Shown one piece after another: positions 1-49,872 of a stretch of DNA of 64,000 bases. The notes beneath the pieces are model-generated. The model saw nothing but the letters and a program-made list of their open reading frames with translations, was not told where the DNA came from and did no database searches. This DNA comes from Escherichia coli (GTDB lineage Bacteria; Pseudomonadota; Gammaproteobacteria; Enterobacterales; Enterobacteriaceae). The translations under genes were made by a program, and so were the position numbers. The stretch's first letter is position 1. Each line of letters opens with the position of its first letter. The DNA is taken from NCBI RefSeq assembly GCF_044324785.1, contig NZ_CP172127.1, one strand, 5' to 3'.

Positions 1-323
1 CACCTCTTCCCCGGCAAATCACCACGCTTTACCCGTCTGAACCCCTGACGGTATCCCCGGTGGCGGCATGGTCCGCCGGCGGACGAACCGTGGTGGCCCT
101 GAAACTCACCAGTACGGTGAGCCGGCGTATTGTGCTTGATCCGCGAGCCCTGCAGGGCCGTTTTGTGGCGGCCACCTTCCAGCACCGCTGGCTGGGTGCT
201 GCCGGGACACCGGAAGACACCACAATGCTGTATGTGGTGACGGCAGGCCGCCCGGAGAAGGCCTTTGTGGCAGAGCCTGTGGCACCGAGCAGGACGGGCG
301 GGGAGGTGAAACATGCAGATTAA
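1..323 (+). CDS. ICE conjugation protein, C-terminal part (5' end lies left of window); stop overlaps start of next gene
   Basis: Frame open from position 3 to stop at 321-323; operon context with downstream T4SS genes. Confidence 0.4.
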   Translation, partial: PLPRQITTLYPSEPLTVSPVAAWSAGGRTVVALKLTSTVSRRIVLDPRALQGRFVAATFQHRWLGAAGTPEDTTMLYVVTAGRPEKAFVAEPVAPSRTGGEVKHAD

Positions 324-1791
324 GTCCAATACCCTGGTGAAATTTGTGGTACCTGCTGTGGTACTGGCGGGGCTGGTGATCACGATGAAAAGCTGCAGCA
401 CACCGGAGAGCGGGAGTGAGAGTACAGCACAGAGCGGTGCGCTGGCCGGATTATCGTCAGAAGAGCTGCGTGCGCTGGGCGTGGAAGGGGACACGCCGGA
501 GGATACCCTGCGGACCCTGGTTGCCCGCCTGAACCAGGTCAGGGATAACCAGAAAACGCTGGAGAGCCAGAATGCGCAGTTGCTGAAGGACAACGAACAG
601 CTGCGTCGCCGGGGGACGGATGTGTCCGGCCAGGTCAGTGAAGCCGTGGCGGGAATGCAGAAAACCTACGATCAGAAGCAGCGTGAACTGCAGGAGCAGC
701 AGCGCTCCCTGATGTCGCAGATTGATGTGCTGCGGGGGCAACTGAGTGACCAGCTGACGGGAAGTCACACGAAGCTCAGCGATATTCCTGACGGGCTGGG
801 ACTGGATTCAGGCAGTGGTGCCGGGTCGTTGATCTCGCAGGGGGCGGACGGGCTGATGTGGGTGAGTCCGGCCGATCAGTCACAGGATGATCCGCTGAGC
901 AGCGGCGGAAAGAGCGGTCCGCGTTTTCCGACCTCCTTCCTTGAAGATAACCCCCTGACCCGGCAGAAAGCAGCCTATGAGCAGCAGGTGAAGGGGTACA
1001 GCAATGAGCAGCAGGCGGCCACCACGCAGGCCGTGTACACCCTGCCGGAGAACTCAACCCTGACGGGCAGCCGTGCCATGACGGCCCTGCTGGGCAGGGT
1101 GCCGGTAAACGGCACGGTGACCGATCCGTATCCGTTCAAGATCCTCGTGGGGCGCGATAACCTCACGGCAAACGGCATTGAACTGCCGGATGTGGAGGGG
1201 GCTGTGGTGTCAGGGACGGCCAGCGGTGACTGGACGCTTTCCTGTGTGCGCGGACAGGTGAACAGCATCACCTTTGTGTTTGCTGACGGCACGGTACGCA
1301 CGCTGCCACAGGCGGATGTGAACGGTACCACCAACAGCAATCAGCAGGCGAAAAACGGGAATAACGCAGGCGGGATTGGCTGGATTTCGGATGAGGATGG
1401 GATCCCGTGTATCAGCGGCACCCGTAAATCCAATGCGTCAACCTACCTGCCGACGATATTCGGGCTGGCCGCAGCCGGCGCGGCCGGGGATGCCCTGAGT
1501 GAGGGGCAGTACACCTCGCAGAACAATGTCAACGGTATCACCTCGACGCTGACCGGCAGTGCCGGTGAAGCGGCGCTGGGTAAGGCCCTTTCCGGCGGGA
1601 TGAATGAGACCGCGGACTGGGTAAGACAGCGTTACGGGCAGACCTTTGATGCCATTTATGTGCCGCCGGGAAAAACGCTGGCCGTTCACATTACCCGTCA
1701 GCTGGCGATTGATTATGAAGAGCGTGGACGTCGTGTGCGTTATGACTTCACCCTGCCGGGAGAAGCGGGCGACCGGGGCGGCCTTGACTGA
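313..1791 (+). CDS. integrating conjugative element protein, PFL_4705-like (signal peptide/TM, coiled-coil, C-terminal globular domain)
   Basis: 492 aa; N-terminal hydrophobic segment, long coiled-coil (LNQVRDNQKTLESQNAQLLKDNEQLRRR), position directly upstream of VirB4-like ATPase as in GI-type T4SS; family call from memory. Confidence 0.7.
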   Translation: MQIKSNTLVKFVVPAVVLAGLVITMKSCSTPESGSESTAQSGALAGLSSEELRALGVEGDTPEDTLRTLVARLNQVRDNQKTLESQNAQLLKDNEQLRRRGTDVSGQVSEAVAGMQKTYDQKQRELQEQQRSLMSQIDVLRGQLSDQLTGSHTKLSDIPDGLGLDSGSGAGSLISQGADGLMWVSPADQSQDDPLSSGGKSGPRFPTSFLEDNPLTRQKAAYEQQVKGYSNEQQAATTQAVYTLPENSTLTGSRAMTALLGRVPVNGTVTDPYPFKILVGRDNLTANGIELPDVEGAVVSGTASGDWTLSCVRGQVNSITFVFADGTVRTLPQADVNGTTNSNQQAKNGNNAGGIGWISDEDGIPCISGTRKSNASTYLPTIFGLAAAGAAGDALSEGQYTSQNNVNGITSTLTGSAGEAALGKALSGGMNETADWVRQRYGQTFDAIYVPPGKTLAVHITRQLAIDYEERGRRVRYDFTLPGEAGDRGGLD

Positions 1792-1808
1792 ACAGGGAGA
1801 ATGAGTCC

Positions 1809-2213
1809 GTGAAACGATTACTGTTCGTGATGAGTGTGGCACTGGTGCTGTCGGGCTGTGCCACCTCTAAAGAAGAGCTGCTGCCTGCCGGAGAGCAGAC
1901 GATGCTGGAGCTCTGGCAGGGTAAAACCGCAGGTGGCGGTCAGCGGCATGCGCTGGCCGCCCGGGAAACGTTGCGCCGTCCCCTTACGGTAACGGAGCAG
2001 CAGGGGATGAACGCGGAGGCGTACAGCTACAGCCGGACGCAGGAAAGCGAAATCAGCCAGCAGTTTCCGCGTCTGCCGAATCCCGACATGGTGATGTATG
2101 TGTTTCCGCATCTGGCCGGCGGTACGTCGCCGGTTCCGGGCTACAGCACGGTATTTCCTTTTTACAGCAGGACGCAGTATGCGCTGCCAGGTGAGCGTAC
2201 GGAGGCTCTGTAA
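1809..2213 (+). CDS. conjugative transfer region lipoprotein
   Basis: 134 aa; signal peptide with lipobox LSGC; stop overlaps ATPase start. Confidence 0.6.
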   Translation: MKRLLFVMSVALVLSGCATSKEELLPAGEQTMLELWQGKTAGGGQRHALAARETLRRPLTVTEQQGMNAEAYSYSRTQESEISQQFPRLPNPDMVMYVFPHLAGGTSPVPGYSTVFPFYSRTQYALPGERTEAL

Positions 2214-5062
2214 TGACATTCTCGCTTTTCAGACGCCGTGAGGAAAAAGGTACAGCAGAGACCAGGGAACGACCGGAAGCAGAAGCGGGGGCATCTTCAT
2301 CGGCCTTTGTTCCGCCCTGTCCTCCGGGGGCACAGCCCCTGCGACGTCCGGGACAGATGACCCGTGATGCTGAGGCGGCGGTTTATCATGCCGGTCCGTC
2401 GGTTATTGATTTTCTGCCATGGGTGGAATATCTGGATGAGGAGCAGTGTCTGCTGCTTGACGACGGGGTGTCGGTGGGAGCGGTCTATTCGGTGACGCCG
2501 GCCGCAACGGAAGGGCGTACGGAAGAGCGCCTGGCGCAAATCAGGGACATGGTGGAGGATGCCCTCCAGGACAGTTTTGATGAGTACGACACGCATCCCT
2601 GGGTGGTGCAGTTCTACTGTCAGGATGAAAATGATGTGGATGCGTACCTGGACTATCTGAAGGGGTATGTGAAACCCCACGCGCAGGGAACGGCATTCAC
2701 GGAGGCCTGGCTGGGTGAAATGGCCCGCCATCTCAGGGGGATTGCCCGTCCTGAGGGACTGTTTACGGACACCCTGGTCACCGGTCAGCCCTGGCGGGGA
2801 CAGCAGCGACGAACCCGGATGGTGGTTTACCGTCGTATCGGGAAGAACAATAACGATCCGATGTCGCCGGTGGCGATGCTGAACCAGGTCTGCGACCGCG
2901 TGGTGTCCGCACTGGGTGGAGCCGGTATCCGCTGTACCCGGATGAACGGTCAGCAGGTGCACAGCTGGCTGCTGCGGTTATTTAATCCGGCACCGGACTG
3001 GATTGCCCGTGAAGAGCTGTACCGGATGGCCTCACGGGTTGATCCGCGTGAGCGTGGTGATGATGTGATGCCGGTGATGACGGATTTTGCCGAGAGCCTG
3101 TGGTTTAACCCGCCGTATTCCGATCCGGAGAACGGGGTGTGGTGGCTGGACGCCATGCCGCACTGTGCCGTGGTGGTGGAAAAGCTGCGTACGCCGCCGG
3201 AGCCGGGGACCATCACCGGAGAGATGCCCCGTGGGGAAAAAACGGTGAATGCGCTGATGGACACCTTTCCGGAGGGAACGGTGATGTGCATGACCATCGT
3301 GGTGCAGCCCCAGGACACCCTGGAGGACCGTTTCACCCGGCTGTCGAAAAATGCGGTGGGTGAGAACACGGAATCCATCCGGGCGCGTCAGGACGTGAAG
3401 GTGGTGAAGGAGCTGCTGGGGAACCGGCACAAGCTGTACCGGGCAGGGCTCACCTTTCTTCTGCGGGCAGAGGATATGGACAGCCTGAAACGCCGGCGTG
3501 TGGAGCTGACCACGGTGCTTCTGGGGGCTGGTCTGCAGCCGGTGCGGCCTGAGTTTGACGTGGGGCCGCTGAACAGCTGGCTGCGGGCGCTGCCGATGTG
3601 TTTTGATCCGGATACGGACAAAAAGCAGTGGTACACGCGTCTGATGTGGGTACAGCACATGGCAGGATTGTTGCCGGTGACCGGCCGGGATACGGGGACC
3701 GGACATCCGGGGTTCAGTTTTTTTAACCGGGGTGGTGATGTGCTGACTTTCGATCCGCTGAACAAGCTGGACCGTACCCAGAACGCGCATCTGCTGCTGT
3801 TCGGACCAACGGGGGCCGGTAAATCGGCCACGCTGTGTGCTTCACTGTCGCAGGTGATGGCAGTACACCGTCCCCGCCTGTTCATTGCCGAAGCGGGGAA
3901 CTCGTTTGGTCTGCTGGCCGATTATTTTGAGAGTCTCGGGCTGTCGGTGAACAAAATCAGCGTCAGACCGGGAACCGGTGTGACCCTGCCGCCGTTTGCA
4001 GATGCGCATAAACTGGTTGAGGAAGGGCAGGATCTGCAGTGCGTGGATGAGCACTCACTGCCTGATATTGAGGATGAAGCCGGGGATGAAGGGGAGGATA
4101 AACGAGACATTCTGGGCGAGATGGAAATCTCAGCCAGGATGATGATCACCGGGGGGGACCCGAAAGAAGAGGCCGCGCTGAAGCGTGCGGACAGGGCGAT
4201 GATCCGCGAGGCGCTGCTGATGGCCACACACCGGACATACCGTGAGGGGCGGCAGATGCTGCCGGAGGATTTGCAGTCCGCCCTGTGGGAGATCTCCCGT
4301 GACAGCAGCCGTAACGATGTGCGCAATGCAAAGGCGGCGGAGATGGCGGAGTCTCTGGGGATGTTCACCCAGAAGGGGAGTTTTGAGGCGGAGTTGTTCA
4401 ACCGCGAGGGCGAACTGTGGCCGGAAGCGGATGTGACGCTGATTGACCTGGGGCATCTGGCCCGTGAGGGGTATGAGGCACAGATGGCGCTGACCATGGT
4501 GTCGATGACCAACATGATCAATAACATTGCCGAACGTGATCAGTATCTGGGGCGTGACATCGTGTTTGCGGTGGATGAGGCGCATATCGTGACGGTCAAT
4601 CCGCTGCTTTCGCCGTACATGACGAAGGTTGTGAAGATGTGGCGTAAGCTGGGAGCGTGGCTGTGGCTGGCGACACAGAACCTGAAGGATTATCCGGATG
4701 TGTCGGAGAAGATGCTGAATATGGCGGAATGGTGGGTGTGTCTGACGATGCCACCGGAGGAAGTGAACAACATTGCACGCTTTAAATCACTGACGGAGGA
4801 GCAGAAAGCGGTGCTGATGTCGGCGAGTAAGCTGTCCGGCTGTTATACCGAAGGCGTGGTGCTGGCGAAGCAGATTGAGGCGCTGTTCCGTGCGGTGCCG
4901 CCAAGTCTCTATCTGGCGCTGGGCATGACGGAGAAGGAGGAGAAGGCTGAGCGGCGTATGCTGATGAAGGAACACCAGTGCAGCGAACTGGAGGCTGCGT
5001 TCCATGTGGCGCGTAAGCTGGACAGGCTGCGTGGTCTGTCGTCCATGGAGGCGGAGGTATGA
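2213..5062 (+). CDS. conjugative transfer ATPase, VirB4/TraC-like (PFL_4706-like)
   Basis: 949 aa; Walker A GPTGAGKS, Walker B-like FAVDEAH; size and context typical of T4SS VirB4. Confidence 0.9.
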   Translation: MTFSLFRRREEKGTAETRERPEAEAGASSSAFVPPCPPGAQPLRRPGQMTRDAEAAVYHAGPSVIDFLPWVEYLDEEQCLLLDDGVSVGAVYSVTPAATEGRTEERLAQIRDMVEDALQDSFDEYDTHPWVVQFYCQDENDVDAYLDYLKGYVKPHAQGTAFTEAWLGEMARHLRGIARPEGLFTDTLVTGQPWRGQQRRTRMVVYRRIGKNNNDPMSPVAMLNQVCDRVVSALGGAGIRCTRMNGQQVHSWLLRLFNPAPDWIAREELYRMASRVDPRERGDDVMPVMTDFAESLWFNPPYSDPENGVWWLDAMPHCAVVVEKLRTPPEPGTITGEMPRGEKTVNALMDTFPEGTVMCMTIVVQPQDTLEDRFTRLSKNAVGENTESIRARQDVKVVKELLGNRHKLYRAGLTFLLRAEDMDSLKRRRVELTTVLLGAGLQPVRPEFDVGPLNSWLRALPMCFDPDTDKKQWYTRLMWVQHMAGLLPVTGRDTGTGHPGFSFFNRGGDVLTFDPLNKLDRTQNAHLLLFGPTGAGKSATLCASLSQVMAVHRPRLFIAEAGNSFGLLADYFESLGLSVNKISVRPGTGVTLPPFADAHKLVEEGQDLQCVDEHSLPDIEDEAGDEGEDKRDILGEMEISARMMITGGDPKEEAALKRADRAMIREALLMATHRTYREGRQMLPEDLQSALWEISRDSSRNDVRNAKAAEMAESLGMFTQKGSFEAELFNREGELWPEADVTLIDLGHLAREGYEAQMALTMVSMTNMINNIAERDQYLGRDIVFAVDEAHIVTVNPLLSPYMTKVVKMWRKLGAWLWLATQNLKDYPDVSEKMLNMAEWWVCLTMPPEEVNNIARFKSLTEEQKAVLMSASKLSGCYTEGVVLAKQIEALFRAVPPSLYLALGMTEKEEKAERRMLMKEHQCSELEAAFHVARKLDRLRGLSSMEAEV

Positions 5063-5445
5063 TGTGTCTGAAATACCCGAAACCGGAGGTGATGACAGAG
5101 GTCATGCCCGGGGGCAGCGTGTTTTTTCTGCCGCCGCAGGGAAAACCGGGTGTTGCGGATCTGGCGCAACCGCATCTGCAGCGCCTGCGGTCACAGCTTG
5201 AACGCAGGCTGGGTACGCTGCATCGTGTGGTGTGTCAGCCCCAGCGGGTGGGGCAGAGCAGCAGTGTGGCCGTGACAGCAGAAGGGGCGTGTGGCGAGGT
5301 GCATCTTCTGCTGACAGTAGGGGGGCATGAGAGCTGGCCCTCTGAAGAGGAATACCGGCATCCGCGCTGGTATATCCAGGTGGTGGATGCGGCCGATCTG
5401 TTCTACCTGCTGCTCTGGCTGTGTGATGGCGGGCAGGAAGCCTGA
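5059..5445 (+). CDS. hypothetical ICE protein (start overlaps ATPase stop, ATGA)
   Basis: 128 aa ORF translationally coupled to upstream gene. Confidence 0.45.
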   Translation: MMCLKYPKPEVMTEVMPGGSVFFLPPQGKPGVADLAQPHLQRLRSQLERRLGTLHRVVCQPQRVGQSSSVAVTAEGACGEVHLLLTVGGHESWPSEEEYRHPRWYIQVVDAADLFYLLLWLCDGGQEA

Positions 5446-5818
5446 AAAAACTGCCGCTACTGGCAACTGTGTCGTGGTGGCATGTTACTGGCAGGTGGTT
5501 TACGGAGTATGGGCCCAATTCTGGCCTGCCGGAACATGCCCTTATAACCTTTAACACAGCGGTTACATAAAAAACAATGTCTTTTATGCACAGCAGTATT
5601 ATGGCTGAAAGTGAAATAAAAGCGCGATATTATACTGCTTCGCGTCCGGTTGTCATTATCATGGATAGTGCGTTATGTTTATAAAGGCGTGACGGACGCT
5701 TAATTCTCACGCAACGCACCCCTCTTAAATTTTCAGTTTCCGGTTTTGAATTTATTGCTGCTATTGGTGCTGCTTATGCGCACGCTGTAAGTCGGATATT
5801 GTCTGACGGAGGCGTACA

Positions 5819-6214
5819 ATGTACCGGATTTTCTGTTCCCTGTTTTTCCTGCCGCTGGCAGCGTCTGCTGGCACAACAATTTATACCGATTCTCAGCACC
5901 TCCCCGTTAATACTCCCGATGGTGTCAGGGTGGTTCTGCTGGATGCACCGGAGCAGCTTCAGAACCGCTTTTTTGGCTCGTTGCCTGCTGATGCGGATAA
6001 GGCTGAAGCGCTGGTCAGGGCACGTATGCAGTCTCCCGAATGGCAGATGATGCAGGCGGAACTGGCTGCTCATTACCGCGATGTGGCACATGCCTGGTCG
6101 CTGGGCGTGAAGAAATATCCTGCCGTGGTGTTTGATGACAGTGAGGTGGTTTACGGCACCACTGATGTGGTGGTGGCCGGGAAACTCCGTACTGAGGGAG
6201 GAGTGCAGCCATGA
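5819..6214 (+). CDS. integrating conjugative element protein, PFL_4709-like (secreted)
   Basis: 131 aa with signal peptide; stop overlaps next gene. Confidence 0.55.
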   Translation: MYRIFCSLFFLPLAASAGTTIYTDSQHLPVNTPDGVRVVLLDAPEQLQNRFFGSLPADADKAEALVRARMQSPEWQMMQAELAAHYRDVAHAWSLGVKKYPAVVFDDSEVVYGTTDVVVAGKLRTEGGVQP

Positions 6215-7185: not shown

Positions 7186-7191
7186 GGAACC

Positions 7192-8613: not shown

Positions 8614-8617
8614 GCGT

Positions 8618-10476: not shown

Positions 10477-10489
10477 CTACCTGTTTTTT

Positions 10490-10527
10490 ATGGCGATATT
10501 TGTCATGAATATCGCCATATTTTTATT
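10490..10527 (+). terminator. rho-independent terminator after traG-like gene
   Basis: perfect 11-bp stem ATGGCGATATT/AATATCGCCAT followed by T-run. Confidence 0.55.
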
Positions 10528-11691: not shown

Positions 11692-11697
11692 TGAGCA

Positions 11698-12299: not shown

Positions 12300-12326
12300 C
12301 ATCCCCGGTTACGGGGATTTTTTTTA
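12300..12326 (+). terminator. rho-independent terminator
   Basis: TCCCCG-GTTA-CGGGGA hairpin followed by T8. Confidence 0.5.
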
Positions 12327-39937: not shown

Positions 39938-39946
39938 GATGGCACC

Positions 39947-41705: not shown

Positions 41706-41716
41706 GGGAACCTCCG

Positions 41717-43342: not shown

Positions 43343-43531
43343 GCAGAAATCCTTGTGTGAAACGTGAAAACAGTGAGCAGAGCAGGGAGGGCAGAAGCGC
43401 TTCGGGACTGAAGTCTGCGCGTGATGGCGATATATCCGCGGGACATGACCGCGGCCGGATATGCAGACTTCAGTCCACAGGCTCCTCACACTGTGCGGGA
43501 CAGCGAAGGTTAACGGTGCAGTGATGTCCCG

Positions 43532-43969
43532 CTAGTTGAAATAAACAAATGCGCTGTCAGGAATGACGGACGGCACGCTGATACCGGTGTCCTGACCTGT
43601 GGTGTTCAGCAGTCGCCGCCCCTTCACCCGGCCTGCCAGCGCGGTTTTGTGGGTGATGTCTGCCAGCGCACCTGCAAGCCCCGGGCGGTCATCCTGCCAG
43701 ACAAAGACCCGCTGTCCGGCGATGATATGGCGGGTACCGTATACCGGGCGGAAACCCGTGGCGGTGACGGGGAGCGTGCCACCCCCCGTGCGCTCAGCCG
43801 GATGGGTGTACAGCCGGTCGTTAATGCCGTTCATGAGGCGGACCATCTCCCACGCACGTTCACGCATCTCCGCCTGCTCGCTGTACACGGTGACCCGGTG
43901 GGTACTGCTGTTGTGAAACCAGGTCAGCGCCACGGTCAGGGCCATGACCAGGGAGAGCGACCAGCCCAT
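43532..43969 (-). CDS. pilM: PilM-like protein
   Basis: about 145 aa with N-terminal TM; start adjacent to pilL stop. Confidence 0.5.
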   Translation of the reverse strand: MGWSLSLVMALTVALTWFHNSSTHRVTVYSEQAEMRERAWEMVRLMNGINDRLYTHPAERTGGGTLPVTATGFRPVYGTRHIIAGQRVFVWQDDRPGLAGALADITHKTALAGRVKGRRLLNTTGQDTGISVPSVIPDSAFVYFN

Positions 43970-43971
43970 GG

Positions 43972-44697
43972 TCAGTCTCCCGGTCTGTCGCTGACGTGCA
44001 CCACACACTGCGTGCTGTTGATGGCTGCATACAGCGGCGTCTGTGCGTCCTGATAGAGACGGAAGAGTTCACTGAGCGCGTGGCGGAACTCGCCGGTGAA
44101 ATGCAGCGGCGCATCGATGCTGTAATTGAGTCCGGGGTTCTGCCAGGCCAGCTGCCAGGTGCCACCGGCCTGACAGGGAACGGCGGCCACCCACTGCTCA
44201 AGACCGGCACGCAGCAGGGTTCCGCGGGCAAGAGTCCAGGTGGTCCGTGCATGCGCCGGTTGCGGCATGTTTGCTGATTTTTCCGCGGTTTTTTCCTGCA
44301 GACTGGTGGTGCCCGGGGTGGCCTGAGACGGACTGAACAGGGTGTTCCGCTCAATACGTACATGCTTCTTCTCCGTGTCGGTGATGGCGCGGAGCTGATA
44401 TTTTTTCAGCATGCGTTCCGTAACGTAATTCCACTGGTCATTTCCCTTCCATGACACCGTGCGGGGCGGCCTGACATCCGGTGCAATGTCAAATGTCCAT
44501 CCCGGCGGTATCAGTTGCTGCATGGCTTTTTTCAGTGATAACCCTTTACCGTCCCGGGGAATAAATTTCAGTGCTCCCGGAGCGCTGCTGACCGTGGACG
44601 ATGAGGGTGCACTGACCTGAGAAGGTGACGGTGCAGCAAAAAGTGGAACAGAAAATGCCAGCAGCGGCACAATAAGAAGTGGTTTCAGTGGTGTCAT
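43972..44697 (-). CDS. pilL: PilL-like conjugative-transfer-region lipoprotein/secreted protein
   Basis: 241 aa with signal peptide; first large gene of pil operon. Confidence 0.55.
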   Translation of the reverse strand: MTPLKPLLIVPLLAFSVPLFAAPSPSQVSAPSSSTVSSAPGALKFIPRDGKGLSLKKAMQQLIPPGWTFDIAPDVRPPRTVSWKGNDQWNYVTERMLKKYQLRAITDTEKKHVRIERNTLFSPSQATPGTTSLQEKTAEKSANMPQPAHARTTWTLARGTLLRAGLEQWVAAVPCQAGGTWQLAWQNPGLNYSIDAPLHFTGEFRHALSELFRLYQDAQTPLYAAINSTQCVVHVSDRPGD

Positions 44698-44749: not shown

Positions 44750-44968
44750 TTATTCCGGCTGAACTCTGCTGCATGAGAATGCGGTGACGTTCACTTTCAC
44801 ACTGAACGATTTACCGGCCTCTTTTTCTTTTGAAAACAGCCTGACGCATTCAGGCTCAGTCATCGGTGTGTTCTGAAAACGCACCCAGGATACCGGTGCA
44901 CCACCAGGCTTCAGGATGGTGGCTTCAATCCGGTATTTATGCGGTGTGGTGTCTGTTGTTGCTGTCAT
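44750..44968 (-). CDS. small hypothetical protein at head of pil operon
   Basis: 72 aa ORF. Confidence 0.3.
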   Translation of the reverse strand: MTATTDTTPHKYRIEATILKPGGAPVSWVRFQNTPMTEPECVRLFSKEKEAGKSFSVKVNVTAFSCSRVQPE

Positions 44969-45494: not shown

Positions 45495-47003
45495 ATGTCC
45501 CTGAATCCCACCGATGAACAGTCAGCCATCATTCACTGGCAGGGGGAAAAACTGGTGGTGAATGCCTTTGCCGGTACAGGCAAAACCAGCACACTGGTGC
45601 AGTTCGCCGCAGCCTGCCCTGAGAGCCGGATGCTGTATCTGGCCTATAACCGCGCGATTCGTGATGAGGCGGAGCGCCGGTTTCCCTTTAATGTGGAGTG
45701 CAAAACCTCCCATCAGCTGGCGTATTCGCGGTTCGGAAAGCATTTCCGGCATCGTCTGGTGCCGGGGCTGTCAGTGACGGATGTAGCGAGAAAACTGAAC
45801 ACCCGCTACTGGACGCTTGCCCGTGTTGCCATGACCGCGCTGAATCAGTTCATCTGTTCGGCGGACGTGGCGCCCGGAATGCAGCATATGCCGCCTCCCG
45901 ACGAGATGAAGGGCATGTCGCCACAGGATGCGCTGCGTGCCGTGCAGATCCTCTGGCATGAAATGAGCAATCCGGATGGCAATTTTCCGGTCACTCACGA
46001 CACCTATCTGAAGCTCTATCAGCTTTCCTCACCGGATCTGTCACGCAGGTGGGATACGATCCTTTTTGATGAGGCCCAGGATGCGAATCCGGTGACGTCC
46101 GCACTGGTGCTGGGGCAGCGGTGCAGGGTGGTACTGGTTGGCGACCGTTACCAGCAGATTTATCGTTTTCGTGGTGCCAGCAATGCACTGTCGCATCCGG
46201 CACTGAACGGGGCGGACCGTCTCTGGCTGACGCAAAGTTTTCGTTTTGGTCCTGCCGTGGCCGGGGTGGCCAGCCAGTTACTGAAGCGTGCCGGCGAGAG
46301 CCGTGAGGTGACCGGCAGGGGCGGGGATGATGAAGTGCTGACGGCAGGTGAAATGCGTGCGCGCGTGAAGGCAGGGAAGATGACCGGTCACAGGGCGATA
46401 CTGAGCCGGACGGTGGCCGGTGTGATTGGCACCGCACTGATGGCGGCAATGCGTGGCAGGAAGGTTTACTGGGTGGGGGGCATTGAAGGCTACAGAACGG
46501 AGGCACTGGAAGATCTTTACTGGTTTCAGATGGATATGCCGGAGCGGATGCACAGTGACAGACTGCGGAAGGACTACCGGGGTTTTGACGAGTACCGTCA
46601 TATTGCGAAGGTGACGAAGGATGTGGAAATGAATCAGTCCATTCGTCTGCTGGAGCTGTGCTTTCCGCTGCCGAAGAAACTCGAACTTCTCAGAAAGCAC
46701 ACCGTCACGAATGAACAGGAGGCGGATATCACGGTCTCAACGGCACACCGCAGTAAGGGACTGGAGTGGTCACTGGTGGTACTCGATGATGATTTTCAGG
46801 ATATCACCGACCCGCTGATAAGCGAGCAGGAGCGGCGGGATGAAACCAATCTGCTCTATGTGGCGGTCACCCGGGCGCGCAGAACGCTGGTTCTCAATGA
46901 ACTCATGCAGCAGCTGACGGAAGCTGCCGGCGATGGTGGTGCACCCGGAAACGCGCCGGTGCAGGGGAAGGAAGACGATGGTGTGGAGGGAGAGGATGTT
47001 TAA
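45495..47003 (+). CDS. UvrD/PcrA-like superfamily I DNA helicase
   Basis: 502 aa; Walker A FAGTGKT, Walker B ILFDEAQD; SD GGAGGA. Confidence 0.75.
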   Translation: MSLNPTDEQSAIIHWQGEKLVVNAFAGTGKTSTLVQFAAACPESRMLYLAYNRAIRDEAERRFPFNVECKTSHQLAYSRFGKHFRHRLVPGLSVTDVARKLNTRYWTLARVAMTALNQFICSADVAPGMQHMPPPDEMKGMSPQDALRAVQILWHEMSNPDGNFPVTHDTYLKLYQLSSPDLSRRWDTILFDEAQDANPVTSALVLGQRCRVVLVGDRYQQIYRFRGASNALSHPALNGADRLWLTQSFRFGPAVAGVASQLLKRAGESREVTGRGGDDEVLTAGEMRARVKAGKMTGHRAILSRTVAGVIGTALMAAMRGRKVYWVGGIEGYRTEALEDLYWFQMDMPERMHSDRLRKDYRGFDEYRHIAKVTKDVEMNQSIRLLELCFPLPKKLELLRKHTVTNEQEADITVSTAHRSKGLEWSLVVLDDDFQDITDPLISEQERRDETNLLYVAVTRARRTLVLNELMQQLTEAAGDGGAPGNAPVQGKEDDGVEGEDV

Positions 47004-48525
47004 GCGGTTCAGACGTATGCTGCCCGGCACAAAGGGCACGGAGCCTGGCGTGGTCGCGCCGGTGATACCGGCAGGGTTTTATGCGCCGCTCACGGCAGAG
47101 GCACTGTTATCACCAGAGCACAGGGAGCTGAGGCTCAGGCAGGTCTGGGATAACAATCCGATGCCCCGTGATGTATACGACAGGATGTGCCTTGAACCAC
47201 TCAGCCGGCTGCTGCTGAACACCCAGAACGTCCCGGCAACACGGGAAGGACGGTGGTCCCGTGCCGGTGGATTTGGTGATCTGACGGTACTGTACACCAC
47301 GTATGCCGTTCGTCTGGCAAGAGGGTACATGTTTCCACCGGATGCGACCCCGGAAGACCAGGCGGCTCAGGCCGCAGTCTGGCATGCGGTGATTTTCTGG
47401 TCAGCGCTGTTTTACCACCTGCCCCTGCTGGCGCACCTTGAGGGGGAACTGCTGAGTGGGCGGGGCTGGCAGCCAGGAATTTCTGTGCCTGACGAACCTT
47501 TCCGTTTCCGGTTCAGGAAGACGGCGCCGCAGGGTACGGAAGCGCAACAACTTGCGGCCCTGACTGCCGGCACGCTGTTACCGGACGGCGCAACGGCCTG
47601 GCTTGTGACGGCGCCGGGCGCACTGCAGAATCTGGCCGGGGCGCTCTGGCATCAGCATCCCGGGATGGCGCTGATTCGTGATGTGCTGCAGGAAGCGGCA
47701 AGGCAGACAGAGAGTCCGCTGAATACCTGCGCTGTCACTGCGCCGGTTACTGCGGAGGCTTCAGCAGACATTCGTCCTGCTGACCCGGTGGTGACCGGCA
47801 GCACGGACAGTGTGGTGGCAGTCACTGAGGTGCAGCCGGCAGAGGAGGTGAAGACTGAGAGCGTGCAGACAGAGACTGAAGGTGGTGGTGAGTCCGCCGG
47901 GGCGTCAGAGGTGCCGTCCGCACAGCAGGAACTGACGGTTCAGACAGCGCCAGTGGTGACGGCAGATGATGAAGCGGTCAGTGCTGCTCCTGCGGATCAG
48001 GACACAGCAATGCTGCTGAGTCTTTTTTCAGCAGATGAGTCCGAAACTGCTGAACCTGAAAACAGTATTAAATCGTCAGCCGATCGGGACGGCCAAAGTG
48101 ACGTACCGGCAGTACAGGGAGAACAAACCAGCGTTATTTATCCGGAGGGCGAAGCAGATACGGAAGAGGTGGATTTTATTACTTGGCTGAAATCGGGGTT
48201 GTCATCGGGGATGATTGAAATAAATACACCTTCCGCGAGAGTGCATTGTATTGCGGGGTATGTTTTTTTGTGTGTCCCGGATATTTTTTATCTGTATCAG
48301 AAAATGACGGGAAGCCGTCGTGACCGCAGGAGTGTTCAGGCGTTGTTTGAACGTTCCCGTATTCACAAAATCCGGGAAGGTGAGCGTTTTTTCAGCCTGC
48401 ATCTGTATAGTGTACCTGACAGAACAGGGAGTTATAAAGCTGTAAGCGGATATCTGGTTAAAAGCCGTTATCTGTGTGGTTATAACGCAGTGCCCGGGGA
48501 CAGTGAATACATTGCTTTTCCATAA
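46996..48525 (+). CDS. hypothetical protein with acidic low-complexity linker (helicase-associated)
   Basis: about 509 aa from ATG at 46996 with SD; overlaps helicase stop by 8 nt. Confidence 0.45.
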   Translation: MFKRFRRMLPGTKGTEPGVVAPVIPAGFYAPLTAEALLSPEHRELRLRQVWDNNPMPRDVYDRMCLEPLSRLLLNTQNVPATREGRWSRAGGFGDLTVLYTTYAVRLARGYMFPPDATPEDQAAQAAVWHAVIFWSALFYHLPLLAHLEGELLSGRGWQPGISVPDEPFRFRFRKTAPQGTEAQQLAALTAGTLLPDGATAWLVTAPGALQNLAGALWHQHPGMALIRDVLQEAARQTESPLNTCAVTAPVTAEASADIRPADPVVTGSTDSVVAVTEVQPAEEVKTESVQTETEGGGESAGASEVPSAQQELTVQTAPVVTADDEAVSAAPADQDTAMLLSLFSADESETAEPENSIKSSADRDGQSDVPAVQGEQTSVIYPEGEADTEEVDFITWLKSGLSSGMIEINTPSARVHCIAGYVFLCVPDIFYLYQKMTGSRRDRRSVQALFERSRIHKIREGERFFSLHLYSVPDRTGSYKAVSGYLVKSRYLCGYNAVPGDSEYIAFP

Positions 48526-48555
48526 CAGCACCGGGTCATTCATCCGTTCAGGGAG

Positions 48556-49668
48556 ATGTATTCCCCTATGAAGAAAGATGTCGAAAAAATAACGTGGGAG
48601 GAATTACTCTTTGAGTACTTCCTTGAGAAAAATCTTAAACCTGATACTGAACACAGCTACCGCAAAGTTGTCCGTCTGTTTGATAAGTTCCTGGGCGGTG
48701 ATTCCTGGCCCGGCGATGTCACACCGAGAGACATTCAGCGATGGCGACGTCATATGCTTAAAGATCAGGGGCGTTCAGTAAACACCTGGAATAACAGAGT
48801 GTCACATCTCCGACCGCTCCTGGCGCTTGGGATCAAGAAAAAGTGGTTACCACAGACGGAAAATCCGCTTGATGGCACTTCAGTGCCCGGGGCATCAAAA
48901 CAGAAAAAAACGCTCACTGATAAAGAGATGGTCAGGATTTACCGTACAGTTCAGGCTTTTGCTGAAGCTGAGGCCAATAAGATGGTGATCTGTGACAGGC
49001 GGCGCAATGCGATGTACCCTGCATGGTACTGGCTGATCGTGCTGGATACGCTGCGCTTCACGGGGATGCGTTTTAACCAGCTGAAACATATCAGGCTGAA
49101 GGATATTCATGAGGATGAGGCGGTGATTACCCTTCAGCTGGAAGGGAGTAAAACCCGACGTGAATGGCGTGTGCCGATTGTGGAATCGTTACGACTTTCA
49201 CTGAAACATCTTATTGAGTGCGCCCGTGTCAATGGTGCGTCGGATAATGACTATCTCTTTGATGTCTGCCTGTACAGCGAGCATTACAGTCCCGGGAAAT
49301 ACCAGTACTGTGCCAAAAGAGCGCATCAGTCGGTCAAATCTTTTTTCCGCAGACTGAGCCGTGAATGTGGTTTTTTTGTCTCGTCACACAGATTCAGACA
49401 CACACTGGCAACAAAGCTGATGGCGGCACCGGAGCGTAATCTGCACATGGTCAAATCCATTCTGGGGCACAGGAGTGTTGCCACCACCATGGAGTATATT
49501 GATTTTTCGGTGGAAGTTGCTGCTGAGGCACTGGAGGCTGAACTCGGTTTATCCACGGATGAGGCGACAAAAAGACGGATTAAAGAGGCGAAAAAACGCC
49601 GTGAGGCCAGTACCGGGAAAAAGGAAAAACAGGAAAGTTCTGGAGGGGAACTTTCTGACAAGGAATAA
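48556..49668 (+). CDS. int: tyrosine integrase of the island (alternative start at 48568)
   Basis: 370 aa; HxxR (SHRFRHT) and C-terminal GHRSVATTMEYIDF catalytic-Tyr region; adjacent to tRNA-Phe. Confidence 0.8.
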   Translation: MYSPMKKDVEKITWEELLFEYFLEKNLKPDTEHSYRKVVRLFDKFLGGDSWPGDVTPRDIQRWRRHMLKDQGRSVNTWNNRVSHLRPLLALGIKKKWLPQTENPLDGTSVPGASKQKKTLTDKEMVRIYRTVQAFAEAEANKMVICDRRRNAMYPAWYWLIVLDTLRFTGMRFNQLKHIRLKDIHEDEAVITLQLEGSKTRREWRVPIVESLRLSLKHLIECARVNGASDNDYLFDVCLYSEHYSPGKYQYCAKRAHQSVKSFFRRLSRECGFFVSSHRFRHTLATKLMAAPERNLHMVKSILGHRSVATTMEYIDFSVEVAAEALEAELGLSTDEATKRRIKEAKKRREASTGKKEKQESSGGELSDKE

Positions 49669-49872
49669 ACATGCTTGACATCGGACCAGAATGGTGTAAG
49701 CATTTTTGCGTATGCGAGAGCGTGACACCTGTTACCAGCAGGTGCCACGCTTGAGGATACGATACTGAAACCACAGTGTAACCAGACTTACACGGAGATT
49801 TCGTTATGACCGGATCCTGTATTAGACGCCCGTTAAGGATCTCATCCCTTAACCAGCGTACTTTGATGCGTT

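What the first reader, a model, noticed from the sequence alone, without database searches (positions are those of the whole stretch)
1..49700. Mosaic island: GC-rich T4SS core, AT-rich cargo blocks and a thin-pilus/shufflon operon, integrated at pheV in an E. coli-type backbone
Composition changes sharply along the island, from the GC-rich type IV secretion block (1-10.5 kb) through AT-rich cargo (10.5-14 kb and the mod-res block) to the intermediate pil operon, with an abrupt return to chromosome-like composition after the tRNA. A PFL_47xx-type T4SS combined with an R64-type pil/shufflon, a leading-region module and a Type III restriction-modification system in one element is an unusual assemblage.
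Basis: partly seen in the sequence, partly recalled or inferred. Interest (0 to 1): 0.45.

Follow-up and report, generated by a model that had tools for sequence, protein, structure and literature searches.

The report
ICEEc2-type conjugative island at pheV

Summary
The composition shifts are real. Blocks range from 0.36 to 0.59 GC against a 0.51 flank.

The region is the tRNA-proximal ~50 kb of a ~78-kb integrative conjugative element (ICE). It continues left of window position 1. It ends at a 51-nt tRNA-Phe 3' repeat (49873-49923).

It belongs to the ICEEc2 / SPI-7 / pKLC102-PAPI family. The GI-type T4SS, type IVb pil operon, Ard block and helicase-TraI-integrase trio form that family's conserved backbone, so the assemblage is not unusual.

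A 99.9% identical copy sits at pheU in APEC strain E19035. A ~98% relative (CH4804) is reported to be acquired by recipients in mating experiments.

New details:
1. The pil operon is a hybrid. Window 29790-39626 (traF, traE, rci, shufflon, pilV to most of pilQ) is 93-99% identical to IncK2/Z plasmids. The junction lies inside pilQ.
2. The rare cargo is an EcoP15I-family Type III R-M system. Its mod gene follows a leader ORF that contains a hypervariable (GCAAC)n tract (13-47 copies in nine genomes), a candidate phase-variation switch.
3. Two STAXI RNA motifs and one EFASI-like motif precede the integrase-domain and ArdA operons.

Verdict: new member of a known kind; modest interest.

The parts
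1..10476 (+). Distal part of the GI-type (MPF_G) type IV secretion module: TIGR03752 (313-1791), TIGR03751 lipoprotein (1809-2213), VirB4-like ATPase TIGR03744 (2213-5062), hypothetical (5059-5445), TIGR03757 (5819-6214), TIGR03756 (6211-7185), TIGR03755 (7192-8613), hypothetical (8579-8977), TraG_N protein (8974-10476). The module continues left of the window.
   Evidence: NCBIfam hits above curated cut-offs; TraG_N PF07916; RefSeq annotation of the 100% identical E19035 copy.
10477..14160 (.). AT-rich variable block (GC 0.415): four hypothetical genes and a type-B (no CxxC) ribosomal protein L31 paralogue at 11916-12179 (+).
   Evidence: An L31 gene occupies the same position in the divergent SCU-106 ICE.
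14166..14461 (+). STAXI RNA motif, copy 1: three tandem 61-nt pseudoknot units plus a conserved tail.
   Evidence: Rfam RF01728, 68.6 and 61.9 bits against a gathering score of 40.5; tandem repeat of period 61; alignment of three copies.
14878..15031 (+). EFASI-like RNA motif between STAXI copy 1 and the integrase-domain gene.
   Evidence: RF02957, 46.3 bits (gathering score 51.2), E = 2.6e-7. The position matches the published STAXI, EFASI, integrase association (PMC12370729).
15176..16081 (+). Backbone gene for a 301-aa tyrosine-recombinase-like protein (Phage_int_SAM_2 + Integrase_1). Role unknown.
   Evidence: Pfam PF12834 and PF12835; conserved in the SCU-106 and NC101 ICEs.
16468..16773 (+). 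STAXI RNA motif, copy 2 (96% identical to copy 1), directly upstream of the ArdA operon.
16902..21331 (+). Conserved 'early/anti-restriction' operon: two hypotheticals, ArdA (18262-18771), two hypotheticals, LPD29 protein (19809-20246), DUF1281 protein (20354-21331).
   Evidence: Pfam. The same block is present in the SCU-106 ICE (ArdC replaces ArdA; LPD29 and DUF1281 retained) and, in reduced form (integrase-domain gene, hypotheticals, DUF1281), in NC101.
21413..24328 (-). res, Type III restriction subunit. Near-identical in score terms to EcoP15I Res.
   Evidence: NF012027 1072 bits; PDB 4zcf_C 1905 bits over 968 aa; PADLOC REase_III.
24331..26367 (-). mod, Type III methyltransferase. The N- and C-terminal parts resemble EcoP15I Mod; the central target-recognition domain (about aa 260-440) is divergent.
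   Evidence: PDB 4zcf_A alignment; PADLOC MTase_III. A second TRD allele sits behind the same leader in strain 2013C-3033.
26425..26581 (-). Leader ORF start (ATG 26581-26579) followed by the (GCAAC)30 simple-sequence repeat (26574-26425). A promoter-like site lies at 26643-26615. At n = 30 the leader reads past the mod ATG and stops 50 nt into mod.
   Evidence: n = 13, 19, 25, 25, 29, 30, 33, 37, 47 in nine genomes.
26600..29789 (.). Decayed cargo: IS3 fragment, 337-aa hypothetical (26859-27872), frameshifted RelE/ParE and HigA genes, IS integrase-core pseudogene, and a 315-bp autotransporter beta-barrel remnant.
   Evidence: RefSeq annotation of identical copies. An intact sigA autotransporter occupies this position next to traF in the SCU-106 ICE.
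29790..39626 (-). Plasmid-derived segment (93-99% identical to IncK2/Z plasmid pTB-nb2): traF (29790-30992), traE (31094-31915), rci (32128-33252), shufflon, pilV (34332-35534), pilU (35531-36181), pilT (36194-36670), pilS (36729-37265), pilR (37315-38415) and pilQ codons from about 106 to the end (38417-39626).
33315..34596 (.). Shufflon. Four sfx-like sites (GTGCCAATCCGGTNTGTGG) at 33315-33333(+), 34043-34061(-), 34070-34088(+) and 34578-34596(-) bound invertible segments A (33315-34061) and B (34070-34596). The pilV reading frame ends inside segment B.
   Evidence: The arrangement is [A B] in the window, [B A-inverted] in E19035 and [B A] in GF60.
39627..44697 (-). ICE-native, GC-rich proximal half of the pil operon: pilQ codons 1 to about 105, pilP (39947-40408), pilO2 (40398-41693), pilN secretin (41717-43342), pilM (43532-44008), pilL/TcpQ-family (43972-44697).
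   Evidence: Only 70-73% nucleotide identity to the plasmid for pilP, pilO2 and pilN; no alignment over pilM-pilL. PilN TIGR02520; GC 0.581.
44750..44968 (-). DUF1187 gene. The adjacent 0.5-kb intergenic region (44969-45494) is a candidate oriT/regulatory region; this was not tested.
   Evidence: Pfam PF06688. The oriT suggestion is inference only.
45495..47003 (+). UvrD-like helicase, first gene of the helicase-relaxase-integrase trio.
   Evidence: The same trio sits next to the tRNA in other ICE lineages.
46996..48525 (+). TraI, MOBH-type relaxase (PFGI-1 class).
   Evidence: TIGR03760 193 bits against a cut-off of 161.4; Pfam TraI_2 and TraI_2_C in homologues.
48568..49668 (+). XerC/D-like tyrosine integrase of the ICE.
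49873..49948 (-). pheV tRNA-Phe(GAA). Its 3' 51 nt (49873-49923) form the att repeat. The T-stem carries four ICE-derived compensatory substitutions (GGUGG/CCGCC instead of CUUGG/CCGAG).
   Evidence: In E19035 the displaced 3' fragment, which matches the K-12 tRNA-Phe sequence quoted from memory, lies 78.2 kb away at the far end of the ICE.

Best explanation
Window 1-49923 is the tRNA-proximal two thirds of an intact, probably self-transmissible ICE of the ICEEc2 type. This is the enterobacterial tRNA-Phe branch of the SPI-7 / pKLC102-PAPI family, which uses a GI-type (MPF_G) T4SS. The element is integrated in pheV.

Shown here:
- The element is bounded by a 51-nt imperfect repeat of the tRNA-Phe 3' end. 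Integration rebuilt the tRNA with an ICE-borne 3' half.
- The same element occupies pheU in another strain.
- Its shufflon sits in different arrangements in near-identical copies.
- All backbone genes in the window are full-length ORFs.

Inferred from family knowledge:
- The XerC/D-like integrase excises the element as a circle.
- The MOBH relaxase TraI, with the adjacent UvrD-like helicase, nicks and unwinds at an oriT that has not been mapped.
- The TraD coupling protein and GI-type T4SS export the strand.
- The type IVb thin pilus stabilises mating pairs. Rci-driven inversion swaps the PilV tip-adhesin C-terminus and so changes recipient specificity.
- ArdA and neighbouring genes, each operon preceded by a STAXI element, protect the incoming DNA.

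The mosaic composition reflects module history:
- a GC-rich family backbone (T4SS, pilL-pilQ 5' end, helicase/TraI);
- a 9.8-kb segment captured from an I-complex (IncK2/Z-like) plasmid by recombination inside pilQ, which brought rci, the shufflon and the orphan I-type genes traE and traF;
- AT-rich cargo, chiefly an EcoP15I-family Type III R-M system.
For: - Family markers pass curated cut-offs in the window and in the out-of-window part of the identical E19035 copy: dnaB_SPI-7_type 684 bits against a cut-off of 655, STY4528, STY4534, PFL_4669, PFGI-1 ParB, TraD TIGR03754, PilL2 TIGR03748.
- att repeat and ICE size of 78,241 bp.
- pheV flank in the window; pheU-side flank gene (dicD) in E19035 at 99.9% identity.
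- Three shufflon arrangements in three strains.
- 55 complete genomes carry at least 80% of the T4SS block, and the same synteny holds in the 82%-diverged SCU-106 ICE.
- Hybrid pil operon: 93-99% identity to the plasmid up to 39626, then 70-73%. PilQ is about 50% identical over aa 1-105 and about 99% afterwards. The plasmid is IncK2/Z with MPF_I, and there traE and traF continue into traH-traJ. TraE is 53% identical to an IncI-gamma/K1 TraE.
- Literature: ICEEc2 at pheU/pheV (PMC11537424); the ICEEc2 pilus acts in mating-pair formation (PMC4458695); the PAPI-1 pil cluster is required for transfer (PMC5297154); ICEs of this type at pheV/pheU transfer themselves and drive Hfr-like chromosome transfer, and the ICE of strain CH4804, which matches this window at about 98%, is shown as acquired by recipients (PMC13127887).
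Against: - The left third of the element, including TraD and the replication/partition module, is not in the window. Completeness in this particular strain is therefore unverified.
- The published ICEEc2 sequence and the Roche 2010 and Seth-Smith 2012 papers could not be read, so a gene-for-gene comparison with the type element was not made.
- No oriT was identified.
- The cross-species scan for relatives returned only one weak locus. SPI-7 relatedness therefore rests on curated family models and literature, not on a direct alignment.
- The direction of the pil exchange (plasmid to ICE) is inferred from the orphan traE and traF genes. It is not proven.
Confidence: 0.9

Rival explanations
1. 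One reading: a novel, unusual chimera that recently brought together a PFL_47xx-type T4SS, an R64-type pil/shufflon, a leading-region module and a Type III R-M system from independent sources.
For: Composition differs sharply between modules. Part of the pil operon does derive from an I-complex plasmid. The R-M block is rare: only 1 of 5426 genomes covers at least 80% of window 1-25000.
Against: Apart from the R-M cargo, the combination is the conserved backbone of dozens of E. coli ICEs. It includes a lineage with only 82% T4SS identity that shares the very same pilQ junction. It matches published family architecture (PMC5297154, PMC4458695, PMC2688673). The chimerism is therefore old and family-wide, not a feature of this element.
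Confidence: 0.05
2. A decayed, immobile pathogenicity-island remnant of a former ICE that is now fixed at pheV.
For: The cargo region 26.6-29.8 kb is full of pseudogenes and IS fragments. SPI-7 of S. Typhi itself has not been shown to transfer (PMC2688673). ICEKp2 excises but transfers poorly (PMC6761156).
Against: All backbone ORFs in the window are full length and are annotated without pseudogene flags in the identical copy. The same element, 99.9% identical, sits at a different tRNA-Phe gene in another strain. The shufflon is still rearranging. A ~98% relative is acquired by recipients in mating experiments (PMC13127887).
Confidence: 0.06
3. For the (GCAAC)n tract only: it is a neutral, hypermutable microsatellite in the 5' untranslated region with no effect on mod/res expression. 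The R-M system would then be constitutively expressed from mod's own Shine-Dalgarno sequence.
For: mod has its own strong GGAGG 6 nt from the ATG. The hairpin that would mask it is no more stable than in shuffled sequence (z = -0.77). All three repeat-number classes occur without obvious bias. The tract lies outside the mod ORF, unlike classical phasevarions (PMC5909438).
Against: The tract is embedded in an ORF with its own GAGG-N7-ATG start, downstream of a promoter-like site. In one frame class the leader stop overlaps the mod start as ATGA. Long 5-nt tracts (13-47 units) are kept in every copy, and two Mod TRD alleles share the leader. The Atack survey states that repeat expansion in mod genes occurs only where it gives variable expression (PMC5909438).
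Confidence: 0.45

Closest known systems
ICEEc2 of avian pathogenic E. coli BEN374 (Roche et al. 2010; pKLC102/PAGI-2 family)
   Same: E. coli host, largely avian/ExPEC background. Integration at a tRNA-Phe gene (pheU/pheV). GI-type T4SS. A type IV pilus used for mating. A three-gene DNA-mobility set next to the tRNA, here helicase-TraI-integrase (PMC11537424, PMC4458695, PMC13127887; the abstract of Roche 2010 recalled from memory).
   Different: The type sequence could not be compared directly. This copy carries an EcoP15I-family Type III R-M with an SSR leader. That cargo is present in only about 11 of 5426 complete genomes, and many relatives have iha, sigA or mcr-1 instead.
SPI-7 family of ICEs in Enterobacteriaceae (S. 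Typhi SPI-7, CTnscr94, YAPI, ICEPan, HAI2)
   Same: tRNA-Phe target. pilL-pilV type IVb operon with rci and pilV. GI-type T4SS of the SPI-7 sublineage. SPI-7-type DnaB, STY4528 and STY4534 replication proteins, topoisomerase III, ParA/ParB (PMC2688673, PMC3401170, PMC4458695).
   Different: No Vi capsule or SopE phage cargo. The distal half of the pil operon is about 95% identical to IncK2/Z plasmid DNA and drags traE and traF along. Whether SPI-7 itself has this junction was not tested.
PAPI-1 / pKLC102 of Pseudomonas aeruginosa and PFGI-1 of P. fluorescens
   Same: Same T4SS protein families (TIGR0374x-0375x, named after PFL_47xx). PFGI-1-class MOBH relaxase and ParB. A pil cluster related to R64 that is required for transfer. 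GC-rich backbone (PMC5297154).
   Different: Those elements integrate at tRNA-Lys, and the 10-gene PAPI-1 pil cluster listed in PMC5297154 includes no rci. This element integrates at tRNA-Phe and has a four-site shufflon.
Thin-pilus / shufflon module of I-complex plasmids (R64 IncI1; IncK2/Z such as pTB-nb2)
   Same: Gene order pilL...pilV, shufflon, rci, traE, traF. sfx-like 19-mers. Rci 74.8% identical to the large IncI-type group and up to 98% identical to some plasmid copies. 93-99% DNA identity to pTB-nb2 over 9.8 kb.
   Different: Only the distal half is plasmid-like. pilP, pilO2 and pilN are 70-73% identical, and PilO2 is 27% identical to the IncI-gamma/K1 protein. There is no IncI replicon, no MOBP relaxase, and no Dot/Icm-type T4SS beyond the orphan traE and traF. 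The nearest plasmids are IncK2/Z rather than R64 itself.
EcoP15I / EcoP1I Type III restriction-modification systems
   Same: Res scores 1905 bits against EcoP15I Res. Mod is conserved outside the TRD. Gene order is mod then res.
   Different: The central target-recognition domain differs, so the specificity is presumably not CAGCAG (the EcoP15I site, from memory). A leader ORF with (GCAAC)n precedes mod. The related NRG857c-type chromosomal copies and the copies on ~95-100-kb plasmids lose similarity at the mod start.
Phase-variable Type III mod genes (phasevarions: modA, modB, modD, modH; the STEC CAGCGAC mod)
   Same: Type III mod with a long simple-sequence repeat whose unit is not a multiple of 3. 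Repeat number differs between near-identical strains. Several TRD alleles sit behind a conserved 5' end (PMC5909438).
   Different: The repeat is not in the mod ORF. It is in a separate upstream ORF whose stop overlaps the mod ATG in one frame class, reads through it in another, and falls 42 nt upstream in the third. The system is carried on an ICE. No expression data exist.
STAXI (RF01728) and EFASI (RF02957) RNA motifs
   Same: Tandem pseudoknot units with UUCG loops lie next to ssb, topoisomerase, antirestriction and integrase genes, with EFASI between STAXI and an integrase gene (PMC2864571, PMC12370729).
   Different: Nothing differs structurally. What is added here is context: all three copies lie in the backbone of one ICE, on the strand of the downstream operon.

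Membership tests
Integrative conjugative element (ICE) | Site-specific integrase next to an att site, with the element bounded by direct repeats | tested here: met
   Tyrosine integrase at 48568-49668 beside tRNA-Phe. A 51-nt imperfect direct repeat of the tRNA 3' end lies at both ends of the 99.9% identical E19035 copy. The distal end of the window's own copy lies outside the window.
Integrative conjugative element (ICE) | Own relaxase, coupling protein and mating-pair-formation system | tested here: met
   MOBH relaxase TIGR03760. VirB4-like ATPase TIGR03744 and five further T4SS families in the window. TraD TIGR03754 in the out-of-window part of the E19035 copy.
Integrative conjugative element (ICE) | Excision and conjugative transfer | not testable with these tools
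   Indirect only: the same element sits at pheV (window, GF60) and at pheU (E19035), and a ~98% relative from strain CH4804 is acquired by recipients in matings (PMC13127887).
GI-type T4SS islands (ICEHin1056 / pKLC102-PAPI / SPI-7 lineages; MPF_G) | Conserved set of GI-type T4SS genes (TIGR03744-03759 families) | tested here: met
   In the window, TIGR03752, 03751, 03744, 03757, 03756 and 03755 score 1.7- to 2.7-fold above their cut-offs. TIGR03749, 03750, 03745, 03758, 03747, 03759 and PFL_4703 are annotated in the adjoining part of the E19035 copy.
SPI-7 family / ICEEc2-type enterobacterial ICEs | Integration in a tRNA-Phe gene | tested here: met
   pheV in the window; pheU in E19035.
SPI-7 family / ICEEc2-type enterobacterial ICEs | SPI-7-type replication/partition module (DnaB-PI, STY4528, STY4534, ParB, ParA, TopB) | tested here: met
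   All pass curated NCBIfam cut-offs in the E19035 copy. This module is outside the window, so it is assumed, not shown, for the window's own strain.
SPI-7 family / ICEEc2-type enterobacterial ICEs | Type IVb pil operon (pilL-pilV) with rci | tested here: met
   pilL to pilV at 34332-44697 and rci at 32128-33252.
SPI-7 family / ICEEc2-type enterobacterial ICEs | Sequence-level relatedness to the type elements (ICEEc2 of BEN374, SPI-7 of S. Typhi) | not tested
   The type sequences are not in the searchable collections. The Roche 2010 and Seth-Smith 2012 papers are not held. The cross-species scan failed.
IncI-type shufflon | Rci tyrosine recombinase plus at least two inverted sfx sites flanking segments that encode alternative PilV C-termini | tested here: met
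   Four sfx-like 19-mers in alternating orientation. The pilV ORF ends in segment B. PilV lengths are 400, 442 and 429 aa in three strains with three arrangements. Rci is 75-98% identical to plasmid Rci proteins.
IncI/IncK conjugative plasmid (integrated) | I-complex replicon, MOBP relaxase and complete Dot/Icm-like (MPF_I) T4SS | tested here: not met
   Only traE and traF of the I-type tra genes are present. Plasmid similarity stops at 29790 and 39626. The relaxase is MOBH. The element is therefore not an integrated plasmid.
Type III restriction-modification (EcoP15I family) | Adjacent mod and res genes with family-level similarity | tested here: met
Phasevarion (phase-variable Type III mod) | Simple-sequence repeat inside the mod ORF that shifts its frame | tested here: not met
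   The tract lies 58-207 nt upstream of the mod ATG, in a separate leader ORF.
Phasevarion (phase-variable Type III mod) | Repeat number varies between closely related strains or within populations | tested here: met
   n = 13 to 47 in nine genomes whose flanks are 97-100% identical. Within-population variation cannot be tested here.
Phasevarion (phase-variable Type III mod) | ON/OFF switching of methyltransferase activity and of a regulon | not testable with these tools
   Needs methylome or reporter data.
STAXI RNA motif (RF01728) | Score above the Rfam gathering threshold, with tandem pseudoknot units | tested here: met
   Four hits of 62-69 bits against a gathering score of 40.5; three 61-nt units per copy.

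The most novel reading that the evidence does not exclude
The EcoP15I-family Type III R-M system carried by this ICE is phase-variable by a mechanism not described for phasevarions. A hypervariable (GCAAC)n tract sits in a short upstream leader ORF, not in mod itself, and sets whether leader translation:
- terminates on the mod start codon (ATGA overlap, n = 3k+2);
- runs through it out of frame (n = 3k, the state in this window);
- stops 42 nt short of it, leaving the mod Shine-Dalgarno in a hairpin (n = 3k+1).

Type III Res needs Mod, so this would switch restriction and methylation on and off together on a conjugative element. That could ease establishment in new hosts and could create epigenetic heterogeneity in avian and extra-intestinal pathogenic E. 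coli.
Probability: 0.45. Interest if true: 0.55.

Novelty: new member of a known kind. Interest (0 to 1): 0.3.

Why it matters
As an island it is ordinary: one more ICEEc2-type element. Its exact sequence is already in RefSeq genomes, and the family is described and experimentally mobile.

It is still useful for three reasons:
1. It is a clean example of how these ICEs are built: backbone, cargo hotspot between DUF1281 and traF, and plasmid-derived pil half. This family was recently shown to drive Hfr-like chromosome transfer in E. coli (PMC13127887).
2. The shared pilQ junction documents gene flow from I-complex plasmids into an ICE mating-pair apparatus.
3. The SSR-bearing leader in front of mod is a testable candidate for a new style of phase-variable R-M control. 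The placement of STAXI/EFASI in front of the early ICE operons gives a concrete setting in which to test the unknown function of those motifs.

Tried and rejected
- **Key papers not available.** Reading Roche 2010 (PMC2944505) and Seth-Smith 2012 (PMC3294861) failed because neither is held. The comparison with ICEEc2 and SPI-7 therefore rests on citing papers and curated models.
- **Cross-species scan.** A scan of species-representative genomes with a PilO2 alignment gave one weak MAG locus (24% identity). The peptide patterns were too specific, so the result is uninformative.
- **SSR junction in other species.** An exact search for the leader/SSR junction in species-representative genomes found 0 hits.
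- **Relaxase neighbourhood.** The ~49% relaxase homologue labelled S. Typhi belongs to a different ICE lineage at a yqgA-speC flank with no adjacent pil genes. It says nothing about SPI-7.
- **Integrated IncI plasmid or cointegrate.** Considered and rejected: there is no I-complex replicon, no MOBP relaxase, and no Dot/Icm genes beyond traE and traF.
- **Prophage.** Considered and rejected: no phage structural or lysis genes appear among the ORFs or annotations.
- **Mod SD hairpin.** Tested against shuffles. A 9-bp stem covers GGAGG, but z = -0.77, so there is no statistical support.
- **Defence and Pfam scans.** PADLOC and Pfam scans of hypothetical ORFs from the variable block, the ArdA operon and the decayed cargo found nothing beyond the R-M pair, L31, Integrase_1, ArdA, LPD29 and DUF1281.
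- **GC step as pil junction marker.** It is not one. The plasmid-like part of pilQ is already 0.53-0.59 GC, so the gradient partly pre-exists in plasmid pil operons.

Full report
**1. Observation**

The compositional mosaic is real.
- One-kb GC values are 0.54-0.62 across 1-10 kb, 0.335 at 13-14 kb, 0.35-0.37 at 22-26 kb and 0.62-0.65 at 42-44 kb. They settle near 0.50 past the tRNA.
- By functional block:

| Block | GC |
|---|---|
| T4SS | 0.590 |
| 10.5-14.2 kb | 0.415 |
| Type III R-M | 0.360 |
| Plasmid-like pil half | 0.499 |
| ICE-native pil half | 0.581 |
| Helicase/TraI | 0.576 |
| Chromosomal flank | 0.510 (sd 0.034 for 500-bp windows) |

- Tetranucleotide usage of island blocks correlates 0.45-0.69 with the flank. 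Flank pieces correlate 0.84-0.91 with the rest of the flank.
- ARAGORN and Rfam place tRNA-Phe(GAA) at 49873-49948 on the minus strand.
- The right flank is yqgA-speC-nupG-mltC-yggX-mutY-trmB, the pheV locus.

**2. Identity of the element**

- Window 1-25000 is 99.9% identical to the chromosome of APEC strain E19035. Window 25001-50000 is 99.8-99.9% identical to GF60, TUM1886 and E19035.
- The RefSeq annotation of E19035 shows that the element does not start at window position 1. It runs about 28 kb further left, through the rest of the T4SS, TraD, an Rpn nuclease, ssb, topoisomerase III, STY4528/STY4534 replication proteins, an SPI-7-type DnaB, ParB and ParA.
- I tested the key proteins against curated models rather than relying on labels:
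  - In the window, TIGR03752, 03751, 03744 (traC_PFL_4706), 03757, 03756 and 03755 all pass their cut-offs. So do the PFGI-1-class MOBH relaxase TIGR03760, the type IVb secretin PilN TIGR02520 and the Type III endonuclease NF012027.
  - In the adjoining part of E19035, dnaB_SPI-7_type, STY4528_fam, STY4534_fam, ICE_PFL4669, ICE_PFGI_1_parB, TraD TIGR03754 and PilL2 TIGR03748 pass.

**3. Borders and mobility**

- The window's tRNA-Phe differs at four positions from the K-12 tRNA-Phe sequence I recalled from memory. The changes are compensatory in the T-stem (GGUGG/CCGCC instead of CUUGG/CCGAG).
- In E19035 the intact tRNA has the same ICE-type 3' half. The native-type 3' 51 nt (plus AA) lies 78,241 bp away, just past ParA. 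The element is therefore bounded by a 51-nt imperfect direct repeat. Integration rebuilt the tRNA with an ICE-borne 3' half. The crossover lies in the 22-nt identical stretch at window 49902-49923.
- In E19035 the tRNA-side flank gene is dicD (191 aa), and similarity to the window stops at 49996. GF60 matches on through the pheV flank to 61756. The same element thus occupies both tRNA-Phe genes in different strains. This fits the literature statement that pheV and pheU are hotspots for ICEEc2-type ICEs (PMC11537424).
- A 2026 study found ICEs of this type (citing Roche 2010) at pheV and/or pheU in recipients after matings and showed that they drive Hfr-like chromosome transfer. It shows the ICE of strain CH4804 among those acquired by recipients (PMC13127887). 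That strain appears among my hits at about 98% identity over the shared backbone.

**4. Is the assemblage unusual? No.**

- Published descriptions:
  - PAPI-1 combines the GI-type T4SS with a 10-gene R64-like type IVb pil cluster that is required for transfer (PMC5297154).
  - tRNA-Phe ICEs of enterobacteria (ICEPan, YAPI, CTnscr94, ICEEc2) carry pilL-pilV. The ICEEc2 pilus serves mating-pair formation (PMC4458695).
  - SPI-7 and related Salmonella ICEs carry pilQ, pilV and rci (PMC3401170).
- Complete E. coli genomes:
  - 184 of 5426 match the T4SS block and 55 cover at least 80% of it.
  - At least 18 genomes appear in both top-25 lists for the two island halves.
- The SCU-106 ICE has a T4SS only 82% identical, yet it has the same order: T4SS, an L31 gene, STAXI, an integrase-domain gene, an Ard gene (ArdC), LPD29, DUF1281, cargo, traF, traE, rci, pilV...pilL, helicase.
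- The lower-GC block 14.2-21.4 kb is therefore backbone, not cargo. The cargo hotspot lies between DUF1281 and traF (21.4-29.8 kb). It holds sigA in SCU-106 and IS elements, an ATPase and a CDI system in NC101.

**5. The pil operon is a hybrid**

- Megablast of 29700-45500 against plasmids matches only window 29790-39630, at 92-95%, to conjugative 86-156-kb plasmids.
- Against the best hit, pTB-nb2 (IncK2/Z, MPF_I), identity is 93-99% from 29790 to 39626. It drops to 70-73% for pilP, pilO2 and pilN.
- At protein level PilQ is about 50% identical over residues 1-105 and about 99% over the rest.
- The plasmid-like segment carries traF, traE (53% identical to an IncI-gamma/K1 TraE), rci, the shufflon and pilV through pilR.
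- In the plasmids traE and traF continue into traH, traI and traJ of the Dot/Icm-like system. In the ICE they are orphans. This argues that the segment moved from a plasmid into the ICE by recombination within pilQ.
- SCU-106 has the identical junction (plasmid coordinate 19696) and the same end after traF. The capture therefore predates the split of these two E. coli ICE lineages, or it has spread between them.
- 'R64-type' is only approximately right. Rci is 74.8% identical to the large IncI-type group, about 90% to a set of ~60-kb plasmids and up to 98% to some plasmids. PilO2 is 63% identical to the IncK2/Z protein and 27% to the IncI-gamma/K1 protein.

**6. The shufflon is active**

- Four sfx-like 19-mers (GTGCCAATCCGGTNTGTGG) in alternating orientation bound segments A (33315-34061) and B (34070-34596).
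- The order is [A B] in the window, [B A-inverted] in E19035 and [B A] in GF60. The flanks are 99.8-99.9% identical.
- The annotated PilV lengths differ accordingly: 400, 442 and 429 aa.

**7. The Type III R-M cargo**

- Res scores 1905 bits against EcoP15I Res over its full length.
- Mod matches EcoP15I Mod outside a divergent central region (about aa 260-440). This implies a different recognition sequence.
- The block matches 100 genomes. Of those matches, 57 are on plasmids, and the listed plasmid hits (~60-115 kb, mostly ~95-100 kb) run at about 85% identity with about 75% coverage.
- A perfect (GTTGC)30 tract lies at 26425-26574. On the mod strand:
  - a promoter-like site (26643-26615; 2 sites found against 0.2 expected) and a GAGG-N7-ATG start (26581) open a leader ORF that reads through (GCAAC)n;
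  - the repeat number sets the leader's fate:

| n mod 3 | Where the leader ends |
|---|---|
| 2 | At a TGA overlapping the mod ATG (ATGA) |
| 0 | 50 nt inside mod, out of frame |
| 1 | At a TAA 42 nt upstream of the mod ATG |

  - the mod GGAGG can pair with an upstream CCUCC in a 9-bp stem, but this stem is no better than in shuffled sequence (z = -0.77).
- Counts in nine genomes with 97-100% identical flanks: 13, 19, 25, 25, 29 (with one variant unit), 30, 33, 37 and 47. Five were counted directly from sequence. Four were inferred from match spans.
- Strain 2013C-3033 has the same leader and a Mod whose N-terminus is 100% identical but whose central domain is 20-30% identical. This is the allelic TRD pattern of known phase-variable mod genes.
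- The one published E. coli phasevarion is a different system: CAGCGAC repeats inside a STEC mod ORF. The survey that reported it does not contain GCAAC or GTTGC (PMC5909438). A four-term search found no relevant paper.
- I therefore regard leader-coupled phase variation as a plausible hypothesis (about 0.45) that I found no description of. It is not a demonstrated fact.

**8. Structured RNA motifs**

- A ~300-nt element occurs twice in the window (14166-14461 and 16468-16773; 96% identical). It occurs a third time upstream of the STY4534-ssb operon in the out-of-window part.
- Rfam identifies it as the STAXI motif (62-69 bits against a gathering score of 40.5). Each copy has three tandem 61-nt units.
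- An EFASI-like hit (46.3 bits, E = 2.6e-7, just below the gathering score) lies between STAXI copy 1 and the integrase-domain gene.
- This reproduces the published associations (PMC2864571, PMC12370729). STAXI RNA has been detected next to topB in Pectobacterium atrosepticum (PMC4710047).
- The contribution here is context: these motifs are backbone components of this ICE family, on the strand of the operons they precede.

**9. Verdict**

- The element is a new member (cargo variant) of a known, experimentally mobile ICE family.
- Main limits:
  - the left third of the element is outside the window;
  - the type sequences of ICEEc2 and SPI-7 could not be aligned;
  - oriT is unmapped;
  - every functional statement about the SSR leader and STAXI is inference.

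Noticed in passing
window 26425-26581 (minus strand), upstream of mod at 24331-26367: A (GCAAC)30 repeat lies inside a leader ORF in front of the Type III mod gene. Repeat number ranges from 13 to 47 in nine near-identical genomes and sets whether the leader stop overlaps, overruns or falls short of the mod ATG. I found no description of this in the literature searched.
   Followed up: partly
window 14166-14461, 16468-16773 and 14878-15031; L002 14179-14502: There are two STAXI motifs and one EFASI-like motif in the window. A third STAXI copy lies upstream of the ssb operon outside the window. Each sits on the strand of, and upstream of, an ICE backbone operon (integrase-domain gene, ArdA operon, STY4534-ssb operon). 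These motifs have no known function.
   Followed up: partly
window 11916-12179 (+); L006 38728-39015: A type-B (no CxxC) ribosomal protein L31 paralogue sits just after the T4SS. An L31 gene occupies the same position in the 82%-diverged SCU-106 ICE, so it looks like a conserved accessory gene of these ICEs.
   Followed up: partly
window about 29.2-29.7 kb; L006 18634-22491: The 315-bp autotransporter beta-barrel fragment next to traF corresponds in position to an intact sigA (SPATE) gene in the SCU-106 ICE. The window's lineage has lost a toxin gene from the cargo hotspot.
   Followed up: partly
L002 28689-50000 (E19035 record about 4689688-4711000): In E19035 the displaced native 3' fragment of tRNA-Phe is followed directly by a second integrase and an island carrying tia, a phosphoethanolamine transferase, ISCro1 and the pap operon (papG-II). 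The ICE has inserted in tandem in front of an older pathogenicity island.
   Followed up: partly
hits H32 (EC17CM2) and H37 (YZLc1-3); H11-H25: Close relatives of this ICE carry mcr-1 within the span that matches window 29790-50000. Many carry iha inserted in the T4SS region near window 5.4-5.8 kb.
   Followed up: no
TUM1886 (NZ_CP128970.1), hits H10 and H27: One genome holds two related ICE copies at distant chromosomal positions (about 0.96 Mb and about 5.03 Mb), presumably one at each tRNA-Phe gene.
   Followed up: no
hit H65, NZ_CP196319.1 (17.8-kb record): A 17.8-kb non-chromosomal record carries GI-type T4SS genes (TIGR03756, TIGR03757, TraG_N). It may be an assembly fragment or an excised piece of an ICE.
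   Followed up: no
L011 (GCA_010247375.1, labelled S. Typhi): A ~49%-identical helicase-TraI-integrase trio sits next to a yqgA-speC-nupG flank with no adjacent pil operon. This is a distinct ICE lineage that uses the same tRNA-Phe site.
   Followed up: no
window 19744-19781 and 20291-20328: Two copies of a 38-nt GC-rich hairpin-forming sequence (TCCCGTGAGGG...CCTCACGGG) lie between genes of the ArdA-DUF1281 operon. They are possibly intergenic terminator or stabiliser elements.
   Followed up: no
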